From Escherichia coli (GTDB taxonomy: Bacteria; Pseudomonadota; Gammaproteobacteria; Enterobacterales; Enterobacteriaceae): DNA of 64,000 bases. The DNA lies in the NCBI RefSeq assembly GCF_050920415.1, contig NZ_CP169309.1. One strand, written 5' to 3'. Within the stretch, counting starts at the first letter, position 1. Each line of letters opens with the position of its first letter. Positions 15,001-18,000 of this stretch are shown here, piece by piece. A program made the position numbers.

Positions 15001-18000
15001 CTGCGCCGTTAATCTGCCTTCCGTCTTCCAGCGTGATTGTTTTGCCCGCTTTTAATGCCTGAAACAGTGGGCCAGGCGGCACGCCAGCAGCTTTTAATGC
15101 CTGGGCATTTAATGCACCCGGTTTATCATGTTCTTCAATACGATAGCCATAACATTCCAGTGGATGCTCCATCGGATAAGCGGTCACTTTGCGCAGGCCA
15201 TCATCGAGAATTTCGCCAGCGCCAATTTCGACAATTTCCAGCGGATAATCGGTCCATGAGCCGCTAATCCGCAGCGCAGTCTCCACAAATTCACGGAGAC
15301 CTTGCGGACCATAAATCGTTAAGGGTTGGACAATACCAGACATAGAACGACTGCATAGTAAGCCGGGTAAACCAAAGAGATGATCGCCATGAAGGTGACT
15401 GATAAAAATCTTATCCAGTTTTCCAGGGTTAAAGGCGGTATGCAGTAGCTGATGCTGGGTGCCTTCACCGCAGTCAAACAACCAAAGACCGCTCCGGGTC
15501 GGATGTTGCAGGTTAAGCAATATTGCCGTGACATTGCGCGTACGGGTTGGCACACCGGCTGAAGTACCTAAAAAAATTAATTCCATGAGTTCATCACGTT
15601 TCAAAAAATATTCCGGCTAGTATAAGGCATACATCTAAAAGGAGAGCATTATGATTGAATGGCAAGATCTGCATCACTCTGAATTATCGGTTTCCCAGCT
15701 TTATGCCTTATTACAACTGCGTTGCGCGGTTTTTGTTGTTGAGCAGAATTGCCCTTATCAGGATATCGATGGTGATGACTTGACGGGAGATAATCGCCAT
15801 ATTCTCGGTTGGAAAAATGATGAACTGGTAGCGTATGCGAGGATTCTGAAAAGTGATGATGATCTTGAACCGGTCGTTATTGGTCGGGTGATTGTCAGTG
15901 AAGCGTTGCGTGGCGAAAAAGTGGGGCAGCAGCTGATGAGTAAAACACTCGAAACATGCGCGCATTACTGGCCTGATAAGCCTGTTTACCTCGGGGCGCA
16001 GGCGCATCTACAAAACTTCTACCAAAGTTTTGGCTTTATCCCTGTGACGGAGGTCTATGAAGAAGATGGTATCCCACACATTGGGATGGCACGCGAGGTA
16101 ATTCAGGCGTAATCAATAACCATTGTCTATAGTTAGTGACAGGTTTTACGCAAATGGAGAACGAGAATGTCTAATCAGTTTGGTGATACACGTATCGATG
16201 ACGACCTGACGCTGCTTAGTGAAACACTGGAAGAGGTGCTCCGCTCCTCTGGCGATCCCGCCGATCAGAAATATGTTGAGCTGAAAGCGCGTGCAGAAAA
16301 AGCGCTGGATGATGTGAAAAAACGGGTTAGCCAGGCTTCAGACAGTTATTACTATCGGGCGAAGCAGGCTGTTTATCGTGCTGATGACTACGTCCACGAA
16401 AAACCCTGGCAAGGAATTGGGGTGGGCGCGGCCGTTGGGCTGGTATTAGGACTGTTGCTGGCACGCCGTTAAAACCTCCCTACACCGGGGTACTGCATTT
16501 TTTTTGTAGTACCCCGTATAATGTGAGGCTTTTAACAGGGAGAGGTCCGCGTGCAATCACTCACTACGGCGCTGGAAAATCTACTGCGCCTTTTGTCGCA
16601 AGAGATTCCAGCGACACCCGGCATTCGGGTTATTGATACTCCTTTCCCTCTCAAAGATGCTTTTGATGCCTTGAGCTGGCTGGCCAGTCAGCAAACGTAT
16701 CCGCAATTCTACTGGCAACAACGTAATGGTGATGAAGAAGCTGCCGTCCTGGGCGCGATTACCTGTTTTACGTCGTTGGACCAGGCACAACGTTTTCTTC
16801 GCCAGCACCCGGAACACGCCGATTTACGCATATGGGGGCTGAATGCGTTTGACCCGTCGCAGGGCAATTTACTTTTACCACGACTGGAATGGCGACGCTG
16901 TGGCGGTAAAGCCACGCTGCGGCTGACGCTATTCAGCGAAAGCTCCCTTCAGCACGATGCGATAAAGGCAAAAGAATTTATCGCCACACTGGTGAGTATC
17001 AAGTCCCTGCCAGGGTTACATTTAACGACCACGCGAGAACAACACTGGCCGGACAAAACGGGCTGGACGCAATTAATCGAACTGGCAACGAAAACCATCA
17101 CCGAAGGTGAACTCGACAAAGTGGTTATTGCTCGGGCGACTGACCTGCATTTCGCAAGTCCGGTCAATGCGGCAGCAATGATGGCTGCCAGTCGTCGGCT
17201 CAATCTGAACTGCTACCATTTTTACATGGCCTTTGATAGCGACAATGCTTTTCTTGGCTCTTCACCGGAACGGCTATGGCGGCGGCGTGCCAAAGCGCTG
17301 CGTACTGAAGCGCTGGCGGGAACGGTAGCAAATCATCCTGATGATAAGCAGGCGCAGCAGTTGGGCGAGTGGCTGATGGCGGATGATAAAAACCAGCGCG
17401 AGAACATGCTGGTGGTGGAAGATATTTGCCAACGATTGCAGGCCGATACCCAGACGCTGGATGTTTTACCGCCGCAGGTACTGCGTCTGCGTAAAGTGCA
17501 GCATCTGCGCCGCTGTATCTGGACTTCACTCAACAAAGCGGATGATGTGATCTGTTTACATCAGTTGCAGCCAACGGCCGCGGTTGCGGGCTTACCGCGT
17601 GACCTGGCGCGGCAGTTTATCGCCCGTCACGAACCGTTCACCCGTGAATGGTATGCCGGTTCCGCGGGCTATCTTTCGTTACAACAAAGCGAATTCTGCG
17701 TTTCCCTGCGCTCAGCAAAAATTAGCGGCAATGTCGTGCGGTTATATGCTGGCGCGGGCATTGTCCGTGGCTCCGACCCCGAGCAAGAGTGGCAGGAAAT
17801 CGACAACAAAGCGGCAGGGCTGCGTACTTTATTACAAATGGAAGAGTAATGAGTCGCATCATTACCGATTCATATCAATAATCTATTTTTGTAGCTCCTT
17901 ATACTTAGCCGCAATATTGATACCGGACAAACTCATGTCAGTAAGCGCATTTAACCGACGCTGGGCGGCGGTCATTCTGGAAGCATTAACGCGTCACGGC

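What the first reader, a model, noticed from the sequence alone, without database searches (positions are those of the whole stretch)
16473..16550. Hairpin with a U-rich loop abutting a TATAAT hexamer between elaB and menF
A perfect 9-bp inverted repeat (cggggtact/agtaccccg) encloses a 13-nt loop containing T8, and the right arm is followed immediately by TATAAT about 30 nt before the menF GTG start. The geometry is atypical for an intrinsic terminator (the T-run is in the loop, not after the stem) and could couple elaB termination to menF initiation.
Basis: seen in the sequence. Interest (0 to 1): 0.2.

Follow-up and report, generated by a model that had tools for sequence, protein, structure and literature searches.

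The report
elaB terminator overlapping the menF promoter
The hairpin and the TATAAT are real: published E. coli K-12 maps show the elaB messenger RNA ending at the hairpin and the menaquinone (menF) operon starting ten bases further on, so this is an ordinary, already charted, compact terminator-promoter junction with an unusual shape.

Summary
CGGGGTACT (16486-16494) and AGTACCCCG (16508-16516) pair perfectly and extend to 12 bp around a U7 loop (-21.2 kcal/mol). TATAAT (16517-16522) abuts the stem.

The window is E. coli, and this spacer is identical to K-12 MG1655, so published maps apply directly.
- Term-seq places the primary elaB 3' end at K-12 2380674, which is window 16520, inside the TATAAT.
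- SMRT-Cappable-seq finds the same end (10 of 26 reads stop there, 16 read through).
- It also finds a 5'-triphosphate start at 2380664, window 16530, for menF-menD(-menH).

So a U-tract-poor hairpin forms a leaky 3' end for elaAB, and its DNA doubles as the -35 and spacer region of a promoter with a poor -35 and a perfect -10.

In a published evolution experiment, all three delta-entC suppressor lines carried C-to-T changes at 16493 or 16496. Both lie in the left arm and the -35 zone, and they raised menF expression.

Comparison of 76 orthologous spacers (51 with this hairpin, 25 without) shows CC(C/A)CG-TATAAT conserved even where the hairpin is absent. Buttiauxella and Cedecea have a canonical stem-plus-T9 terminator at the same place, so the loop T-run may be the old U-tract.

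Functional coupling remains unproven. Novelty is low.

The parts
16470..16472 (+). elaB stop codon (TAA); the elaB coding sequence is 16167-16472
   Evidence: ORF list; annotated as elaB in E. coli genomes
16476..16481 (+). CUCCCU motif in the elaB 3' UTR. It is complementary to the menF Shine-Dalgarno core (AGGGAG, 16537-16542) and aligns with the 5' arm of the canonical terminator found in other genera.
   Evidence: Conserved in the hairpin-bearing genera. RNAalifold draws CUCC/GGAG. 91% of cells are paired, but there are no double changes. Positional homology to the Buttiauxella-type spacers.
16486..16497 (+). Left (5') arm of the hairpin, CGGGGTACTGCA. It overlaps the -35 zone of the menF promoter.
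   Evidence: The core GGGTACTG is nearly invariant in 51 orthologous spacers.
16493..16498 (+). Best -35 candidate, CTGCAT (2 of 6 matches to TTGACA, 18-bp spacer). It contains the published suppressor sites C16493T (menF -58) and C16496T (menF -55).
   Evidence: PWM scoring. Suppressor mutations from PMC5892946, mapped onto the BW25113 sequence.
16498..16505 (+). T8 run. 16498-16504 form the U7 loop and T16505 pairs with A16497. The run lies at -32 to -25 relative to the start site.
   Evidence: A T9 run lies within about 5 nt of the same place in the Buttiauxella/Cedecea spacers, where it is the terminator U-tract.
16505..16516 (+). Right (3') arm of the hairpin, TGTAGTACCCCG, which is also the promoter spacer. 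A16508C is a common natural variant.
   Evidence: CC(C/A)CG directly before TATAAT is conserved in all genera including Yersinia. Allele counts.
16517..16522 (+). -10 hexamer TATAAT of the menF promoter. It also sits where the terminator's U-tract would be.
   Evidence: Present as TATAAT, TATACT or TATAGT in all 76 orthologous spacers where a hexamer could be anchored.
16520..16520 (+). Mapped 3' end of elaAB/elaB transcripts (the RNA ends ...CCCCGUAUA, 4 nt after the stem)
   Evidence: Term-seq coordinate 2380674(-) (PMC7815308). SMRT-Cappable-seq TTS 2380674 (PMC6131387). Coordinate mapping.
16530..16530 (+). Mapped transcription start of menF-menD(-menH), 8 nt after the -10 hexamer (possibly off by 1 nt because of coordinate convention)
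   Evidence: SMRT-Cappable-seq operon table, TSS 2380664(-)
16530..16533 (+). T-run at the start site (CTTTTAAC; TTTT(T) in most genera)
   Evidence: Conserved in hairpin-bearing and most hairpin-less spacers. Function not tested.
16538..16545 (+). menF Shine-Dalgarno sequence GGGAGAGG, 5 nt before the GTG
16551..16553 (+). menF GTG start codon (coding sequence 16551-17849)
16468..16536 (+). Optional outer helix GUUAAAACCUCC (16468-16479) with GAGGCUUUUAAC (16523-16536), enclosing the hairpin and the TATAAT
   Evidence: Drawn by RNAfold for E. coli, but only 58% of cells are paired across genera. Escherichia-specific and probably not functional.

Best explanation
This is a dual-use terminator-promoter junction.

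Shown by published maps:
- Transcripts from upstream of elaA, and probably from elaB's own promoter, cross the elaB stop and transcribe a 12-bp GC-rich hairpin.
- Much of this RNA ends 4 nt after the stem, at 16520.
- More than half of full-length reads in M9 medium continued into menF.

Inferred: the stop is leaky because the sequence after the stem is UAUAAUGU, A/U-rich but not a proper U-tract. The hairpin therefore acts as a weak intrinsic terminator and as a 3' protective cap for elaB mRNA.

Shown: the same DNA is the core of the menFDHBCE promoter. The right arm is the spacer, TATAAT is the -10 hexamer, and the left arm plus loop cover a poor -35 region. Transcription starts at 16530, 10 nt beyond the elaB 3' end, giving a 21-nt leader with a strong Shine-Dalgarno sequence.

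Inferred: the junction keeps menF partly insulated from elaB transcription, which is stress-induced according to the literature as I recall it. It also keeps the intrinsic promoter weak.

Shown genetically: single C-to-T changes at 16493 or 16496 raise menF expression. Whether they act by weakening the stem (more read-through) or by improving the -35 hexamer is inferred and unresolved.

Inferred from comparison: the loop T-run is most likely the retained U-tract of an ancestral canonical terminator. The G-rich 3' arm of that terminator switched partner to the conserved CCCC of the promoter spacer.
For: - Identity: the window is E. coli and the spacer is identical to K-12.
- Hairpin: 12 bp, -21.2 kcal/mol.
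- 3' end: Term-seq 2380674(-) = 16520, labelled 'primary' for elaB and listed three times in a file covering three conditions, with scores of 54,112 and 221,851 in the two entries shown.
- Full-length reads: TSS 2381565 to TTS 2380674 covers elaA-elaB. There are 30 reads at the TSS; 10 end at the TTS, 16 pass through, and none end within the next 50 bp.
- Start site: TSS 2380664(-) = 16530 for menF-menD and menF-menD-menH. A read-through elaA-elaB-menF variant is also listed.
- Rho: no Rho-termination region is listed at 23802xx-23806xx.
- Poor U-tract: tail score 1.64 against 5.5 for a T9 tail. The scanner calls neither this terminator nor this promoter.
- Genetics: all three independent delta-entC suppressor lines carry menF(-58) or menF(-55) G>A. 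These are C16493T and C16496T on the sense strand, and 'de-repressed menF expression' was reported.
- Effect of the mutations: the stem weakens by +2.3 and +4.9 kcal/mol. C16493T turns CTGCAT into TTGCAT (-0.16 to +3.61 bits with an approximate matrix).
- Conservation: the -10 hexamer and the CC(C/A)CG before it are conserved across 76 orthologous spacers, including Yersinia, where elaB is not the neighbour. The hairpin core is invariant in 51 spacers.
- Ancestry: a canonical stem+T9 terminator sits at the homologous place in Buttiauxella, Cedecea and Shimwellia. Ungapped identity is 23/40 in register against at most 18 at other offsets.
Against: - No in vitro termination data exist for this site. 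A 3' end only 4 nt after a stem that lacks a U-tract could come from exonucleolytic trimming or processing rather than from termination there.
- Read-through counts are small (26 reads, one condition).
- The start site rests on one data set that I could read.
- The hairpin core shows no compensatory substitutions. RNA pairing is therefore not proven by covariation, and a DNA-level (protein-binding) constraint is not excluded.
- The common natural allele A16508C weakens the stem as much as one suppressor does. That argues against strong selection on stem strength.
- C16496T does not improve any -35 register, and C16493T recurred twice. The two suppressors may therefore not share one mechanism.
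Confidence: 0.8

Rival explanations
1. The hairpin is only a 3' stabiliser. RNA polymerase does not terminate at it. Transcripts read into menF, are ended further downstream (by Rho or by decay), and are trimmed back by 3' exonucleases to the stable stem. That trimming would produce the 16520 end.
For: There is no U-tract after the stem. The end lies only 4 nt from the stem. Most full-length reads pass the site, with a median extension of only 199 nt, which is inside menF. Hairpin-capped ends of this kind are described for Rho-dependent transcripts (PMC6061677; title and abstract only).
Against: No Rho-termination region is listed within or upstream of menF in the bicyclomycin data. No reads end in the 50 bp after the site. 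The tail is entirely A/U for 6 nt, giving a weak RNA:DNA hybrid. Orthologues in other genera have an unambiguous intrinsic terminator at the same place.
Confidence: 0.2
2. The inverted repeat GGGTACTG-N11-(C/T)AGTACCC is mainly a DNA operator for a dimeric regulator that sits over the -35 and spacer region and represses menF. The RNA hairpin is a by-product.
For: Both arms are invariant in sequence across genera, with nearly constant spacing and no compensatory changes, while the loop and upstream flank are scrambled. The position is typical for a repressor site. Both suppressor mutations hit one half-site and 'de-repress' menF. A PmenFDHBCE reporter is repressed 105-fold in an sdiA-dependent way in Enterobacter cloacae (PMC11619404).
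Against: No regulator is known for this site. The same study found no sdiA effect on the E. coli promoter, only 1.8-2.7-fold activation in Salmonella despite the same repeat, and direct binding was not tested. No SdiA motif is agreed. The RNA 3' end at the stem base shows that the RNA structure is used. The invariance of the left arm follows if the right arm is fixed as promoter spacer, since CC(C/A)CG is conserved even without a hairpin. The repeat is not a LexA box: the spacing is CTG-N11 rather than N10, and the window has TAG rather than CAG.
Confidence: 0.12
3. The structure is a translational attenuator of menF, as RegulonDB predicts according to PMC5892946. In read-through RNA the upstream CUCCCU pairs with the Shine-Dalgarno core AGGGAG, so that only promoter-derived mRNA is translated well.
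For: [quoted passage not shown] RNAalifold draws CUCC/GGAG as a consensus helix. 91% of cells are paired.
Against: The helix shows no double changes. RNAfold for E. coli leaves the Shine-Dalgarno sequence open. The mapped start at 16530 means the main menF mRNA lacks the upstream partner. The suppressor sites are not in the CUCCCU/AGGGAG helix, and the effect was measured at RNA level.
Confidence: 0.1
4. The hairpin and the hexamer are next to each other by chance and neither has a function.
For: About four perfect 9-bp inverted repeats are expected by chance in 64 kb.
Against: Conservation across genera, the mapped 3' end and start site, and adaptive mutations in the arm.
Confidence: 0.01

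Closest known systems
Canonical intrinsic (Rho-independent) terminators, including the orthologous elaB terminator of Buttiauxella, Cedecea and Shimwellia
   Same: A GC-rich stem-loop lies shortly after the stop codon and the RNA 3' end is at its base. It occupies the same position, just upstream of the menF TATAAT.
   Different: There is no U-tract after the stem: the tail is the -10 hexamer (score 1.64 against 5.5). The T-run sits in the loop. The stop is leaky (10 stopped, 16 read through).
Leaky termination sites that create operon variants (SMRT-Cappable-seq, PMC6131387)
   Same: This exact site is listed there as a 'novelTTS' with read-through, and the read-through product elaA-elaB-menF is listed as an operon variant.
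   Different: Here the termination point lies inside the next promoter's -10 hexamer, only 10 nt from the next start site. The paper does not comment on this site.
Hairpin-capped 3' ends of Rho-terminated transcripts (Dar and Sorek 2018, PMC6061677)
   Same: A stable stem without a U-tract marks the steady-state 3' end.
   Different: No Rho-dependent region is reported here, and orthologues use an intrinsic terminator.
RNA polymerase recycling and re-initiation after intrinsic termination (PMC6978380, PMC6978322)
   Same: A terminator lies directly next to a same-strand promoter, the geometry in which a polymerase retained after termination could restart.
   Different: That mechanism was shown by single-molecule work in vitro on model templates. 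Nothing here tests it at this locus.
Leader attenuators (transcriptional or translational; the RegulonDB computational prediction for menF)
   Same: There are alternative pairings among C-rich and G-rich segments (CUCCC / GGGG / CCCC / GGGAG) upstream of a start codon.
   Different: The main menF mRNA starts downstream of the hairpin. There is no leader peptide, ligand or covariation evidence.

Membership tests
Intrinsic (Rho-independent) terminator | GC-rich stem-loop shortly downstream of a stop codon | tested here: met
   12-bp stem, -21.2 kcal/mol, starting 14 nt after the elaB TAA
Intrinsic (Rho-independent) terminator | U-tract immediately 3' of the stem | tested here: not met
   The tail is TATAATGTGAGG, T-tract score 1.64 against 5.5 for T9. 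The scanner, which needs 5 T in 8 bases, does not call it.
Intrinsic (Rho-independent) terminator | In vivo RNA 3' end within about 10 nt of the stem base | tested here: met
   Published Term-seq and SMRT-Cappable-seq end at 2380674 = 16520, 4 nt after the stem
Intrinsic (Rho-independent) terminator | Independence from Rho | tested here: inconclusive
   No Rho-termination region is listed at 23802xx-23806xx in PMC7815308 file 2. Absence from a thresholded list is weak evidence.
Intrinsic (Rho-independent) terminator | Termination by purified RNA polymerase in vitro | not testable with these tools
   Needs a transcription assay
Sigma-70 promoter | -10 hexamer close to TATAAT | tested here: met
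   6 of 6 at 16517-16522. Conserved in all orthologous spacers that could be anchored.
Sigma-70 promoter | -35 hexamer (at least 4 of 6) at 16-18 bp, or an extended -10 TGn | tested here: not met
   The best candidate, CTGCAT, matches 2 of 6 (18-bp spacer). CCG precedes the hexamer, so there is no TGn. The scanner does not call it.
Sigma-70 promoter | Primary (5'-triphosphate) start 6-9 nt after the -10 hexamer | tested here: met
   SMRT-Cappable-seq TSS 2380664 = 16530, 8 nt after the hexamer
LexA (SOS) box | CTG-N10-CAG within TACTG(TA)5CAGTA (consensus recalled from memory) | tested here: not met
   The window has TACTG-N11-TAGTA. Most genera have CTG-N11-CAG, and the spacing ranges from 9 to 11.
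LuxR-type (SdiA) operator | Match to a defined binding motif, and SdiA-dependent regulation in this species | tested here: not met
   The review states that no generally valid SdiA box exists. The E. coli menF reporter was not sdiA-regulated.
Translational attenuator (RegulonDB prediction) | Conserved helix that sequesters the Shine-Dalgarno sequence, with evidence of alternative folds | tested here: inconclusive
   CUCC/GGAG is drawn by RNAalifold and 91% of cells are paired, but there are no double changes. The E. coli MFE leaves the Shine-Dalgarno sequence free.
Interspersed repeat (REP/ERIC/MITE-like) | Several copies per genome | tested here: not met
   One place per genome in 5421 of 5426 E. 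coli genomes
Any Rfam RNA family | Covariance-model match | tested here: not met
   No relevant hit at E <= 10 in 15500-17500

The most novel reading that the evidence does not exclude
The overlap is a mechanical coupling device. Polymerases that release elaB RNA at 16520 stay on the DNA, already positioned over the menF -10 element, and re-initiate at 16530. High elaB transcription (elaB is stress-induced according to the literature as I recall it) would then feed menaquinone-operon initiation from a promoter that by itself has almost no -35 element. The hairpin would both end one RNA and load the next promoter.
Probability: 0.08. Interest if true: 0.6.

Novelty: already known. Interest (0 to 1): 0.22.

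Why it matters
Both functional end points are already in public tables: the elaB 3' end and the menF start site. RegulonDB reportedly carries a predicted attenuator here, and adaptive mutations in the left arm are published. The finding therefore adds no new kind of element.

Its value is as a well-documented example of three points.
- A strong hairpin without a U-tract can serve as a leaky gene boundary in E. coli.
- One 45-bp stretch can hold a terminator and the next promoter. Consensus scanners miss both.
- Single-base changes in such a junction can retune a biosynthetic operon, as when menF substitutes for entC.

The suggested arm-switch origin of the hairpin is a small, testable piece of regulatory evolution.

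Tried and rejected
- Rfam scan of 15500-17500 at E <= 10: only two chance snoRNA-like hits, elsewhere in the region.
- Repeat family: the 76-nt spacer occurs once per E. coli genome.
- Minus-strand role: the reverse strand folds equally well. However, no T-run follows the stem and there is no convergent gene, so a bidirectional terminator was rejected.
- Outer helix 16468-16479 with 16523-16536: Escherichia-specific, only 58% of cells paired across genera.
- An alternative 5-bp hairpin ACCTC/GGGGT followed by ..TTTT was flagged by the scanner. No RNA 3' end is reported at the T-run, because only 2380674 appears among 23806xx coordinates.
- LexA box: rejected on spacing and on TAG in place of CAG.
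- SdiA operator: no agreed motif and no sdiA effect in E. coli.
- Covariation: the hairpin core is invariant, so the test is uninformative.
- Literature dead ends:
  - Thomason 2015 is not held.
  - The held text of the Cappable-seq 2016 supplements has no coordinate from this region.
  - Conway 2014, Choe 2022, Dar and Sorek 2018 and the 2025 reiterative-initiation paper have no supplements held.
  - One broad search on elaB with ProQ and Hfq gave nothing on this 3' UTR.
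Full report
**Identity of the region.** The window is Escherichia coli. The genes around the finding are rbn/elaC (-), elaA (+, 15651-16112), elaB (+, 16167-16472), menF (+, 16551-17849), then menD. The 78-nt elaB-menF spacer (16473-16550) is base-for-base identical to K-12 MG1655 2380644-2380721 on the minus strand. The coordinate conversion is K-12 coordinate = 2397194 minus window position. The spacer is single-copy in 5421 of 5426 complete E. coli genomes.

**The observation.**
- The nine-base arms CGGGGTACT (16486-16494) and AGTACCCCG (16508-16516) are perfectly complementary around a 13-nt interval that holds T8. TATAAT follows directly at 16517-16522.
- As RNA the stem grows to 12 bp (G.U, C-G, A-U) with a U7 loop, at -21.2 kcal/mol.
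- A perfect 9-bp inverted repeat is not rare by itself: 7 are seen against 4.3 +/- 2.5 expected in 64 kb.
- This particular pair is expected 0.01 times.
- TATAAT is depleted in the window, 12 found against 23 expected.
- No Rfam family matches.
- The consensus scanner flags neither a terminator nor a promoter here. No T-run follows the stem, and the -35 candidate is too poor.

**What published maps of the identical K-12 sequence show.**
- Adams et al. 2021 (PMC7815308, Supplementary file 1) list a Term-seq 3' end at 2380674(-), classed as the 'primary' end of elaB. It occurs three times in a file that covers three growth conditions. This is window 16520, so the RNA ends ...CCCCGUAUA, four bases after the stem and inside the TATAAT.
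- Their list of Rho-termination regions has nothing at 23802xx-23806xx.
- Yan et al. 2018 (PMC6131387) list, for M9 medium, full-length primary transcripts running from TSS 2381565 (upstream of elaA) to TTS 2380674. Of 30 reads at the TSS, 10 end at the TTS, 16 pass through with a median extension of 199 nt, and none end in the next 50 bp.
- Their operon table gives a TSS at 2380664(-), window 16530, for menF-menD and menF-menD-menH. It also gives a read-through elaA-elaB-menF variant.
- The elaB 3' end and the menF start are therefore 10 nt apart. The start lies 8 nt after the -10 hexamer and leaves a 21-nt leader with the Shine-Dalgarno sequence GGGAGAGG (16538-16545).

**Genetic evidence.**
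- Wytock et al. 2018 (PMC5892946) evolved BW25113 delta-entC. All three independent suppressor lines carried menF(-58) G>A (twice) or menF(-55) G>A. [quoted passage not shown]
- I mapped these sites on the BW25113 sequence. On the menF sense strand they are C16493T and C16496T. Both lie in the left arm (CGGGGTA[C]TG[C]A), at -37 and -34 from the mapped start.
- Each converts a C-G pair to U.G, changing the stem from -21.2 to -18.9 and to -16.3 kcal/mol.
- C16493T also turns the best -35 candidate CTGCAT into TTGCAT. The score rises from -0.16 to +3.61 bits with an approximate matrix recalled from memory. C16496T improves no register.
- The stretch therefore limits menF expression. Whether the mutants act through more read-through, a better -35, or loss of a repressor site is not settled.
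- A natural allele, A16508C, is found in 1294 of 5422 matching records. It weakens the stem to -16.9 kcal/mol. This argues against tight selection on stem strength within E. coli.

**Comparative evidence.** Using MenF as a probe I fetched 79 loci, and elaB-menF synteny holds across Enterobacteriaceae. A -10-like hexamer could be anchored in 76 spacers: 51 carry the GGGTACT..AGTACCC hairpin and 25 do not.
- The hexamer (TATAAT, rarely TATACT or TATAGT) and the CC(C/A)CG just before it are conserved in every genus. This includes Yersinia, where the upstream gene is not elaB and there is no hairpin. The right arm is therefore old promoter spacer.
- The hairpin occurs in Escherichia, Citrobacter, Salmonella, Enterobacter, Lelliottia, Kosakonia, Trabulsiella and their allies. 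Stem energies range from -12 to -22 kcal/mol and the tail is always poor in T, scoring about 1.6.
- The 7-8 bp core of the hairpin never varies, so covariation says nothing for or against RNA pairing. The outermost and apical pairs vary freely.
- Buttiauxella, Cedecea and Shimwellia have instead a textbook terminator, AUCUUACCCA-uug-UGGGUGGGAU plus T9. It is called by the scanner, and its T-run ends 15 nt before the TATAAT.
- When both spacer types are anchored on TATAAT they align without gaps: 23 of 40 consensus positions match in register, against at most 18 at other offsets. Pairwise, 18 of 36 positions match, against 9.6 +/- 3.0 for shuffles.
  - The T-runs coincide.
  - The hairpin's left arm GGGGGTAC lies over the canonical terminator's 3' arm GGGTGGGA.
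  - The conserved upstream CTCCCT lies over its 5' arm CTTACCC.
- The simplest reading (inference) is an arm switch. The G-rich descending arm of an ancestral terminator acquired a better partner in the CCCC of the promoter spacer, leaving the former U-tract stranded in the loop.

**Mechanism proposed.**
- Shown: the hairpin marks a leaky 3' end of elaAB RNA. The -10 hexamer directs a start 10 nt further on. Mutations in the left arm raise menF RNA.
- Inferred:
  - Termination occurs at the hairpin despite the poor U-tract, helped by an all-A/U hybrid.
  - The junction partly insulates menF from elaB transcription (stress-induced according to the literature as I recall it).
  - The promoter is kept weak by its -35 region.
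- Rivals:
  - The 3' end arises by trimming of longer RNAs.
  - The repeat is a protein operator. A 105-fold sdiA-dependent repression of the E. cloacae promoter is an intriguing lead, but E. coli shows none and no motif is agreed.
  - The structure is a translational attenuator through CUCCCU/AGGGAG pairing, which RNAalifold draws without covariation support.

**Verdict.** Functional coupling beyond juxtaposition and leakiness is untested. The element is already charted in public data, so novelty is low and interest is modest.

Noticed in passing
window 16529-16535 (CTTTTAA); homologous positions in L002-L080: A run of 4-5 T lies exactly at the mapped menF start site. It is conserved (GG-TTTT(T)) in nearly all Enterobacteriaceae spacers, with or without the hairpin, but not in the Yersinia or Parasutterella loci. 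It could matter for start-site choice, UTP-sensitive reiterative initiation, or ribosome binding to the short leader.
   Followed up: no
window 16476-16481 and 16537-16542: CUCCCU in the elaB 3' UTR is complementary to the menF Shine-Dalgarno core AGGGAG and is conserved together with it. RNAalifold draws the helix, but there are no compensatory changes. It could silence menF translation on read-through RNA.
   Followed up: partly
window 16508 (A/C polymorphism); L081, L082, L084: About 24% of complete E. coli genomes (1294 of 5422 matching records) carry A16508C. It breaks the ninth stem pair and weakens the hairpin by 4.3 kcal/mol. Rarer alleles include G16495C and a T7 run.
   Followed up: partly
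Enterobacter cloacae orthologue (L039) and PMC11619404: A PmenFDHBCE reporter is repressed about 105-fold in an sdiA-dependent, AHL-independent way in E. cloacae. It is weakly activated in Salmonella and unaffected in E. coli. The binding site is unknown, and the conserved inverted repeat over the -35 and spacer region is a candidate.
   Followed up: partly
L054 about 1305-1440; L057 and L076 about 1265-1400: Extra insertions of about 110-125 nt lie inside the elaB-menF spacer of Enterobacter genomosp. O and two Buttiauxella genomes. The L054 insert resembles an ERIC/IRU-type element (recalled from memory, not tested). It lies between the CTCCCT motif and the hairpin and leaves the hairpin-promoter unit intact.
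   Followed up: no
window 16127-16133: CTATAGT lies in the 54-nt elaA-elaB spacer, a -10-like element with an upstream C as favoured by sigma-S. This fits elaB being a stationary-phase gene (from memory). No start-site data were checked.
   Followed up: no
L024 (Parasutterella muris contig) and L079 (Caballeronia mineralivorans, 318-nt contig): Enterobacteriaceae-like menF sequences (69% and 95% identity to E. coli MenF) sit in assemblies of Betaproteobacteria. These are probably contamination or recent transfer.
   Followed up: no
window, whole: The perfect TATAAT hexamer is about half as frequent as in dinucleotide-preserving shuffles (12 against 23 +/- 5). Six of the 12 are clustered at 12899-14206.
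   Followed up: no
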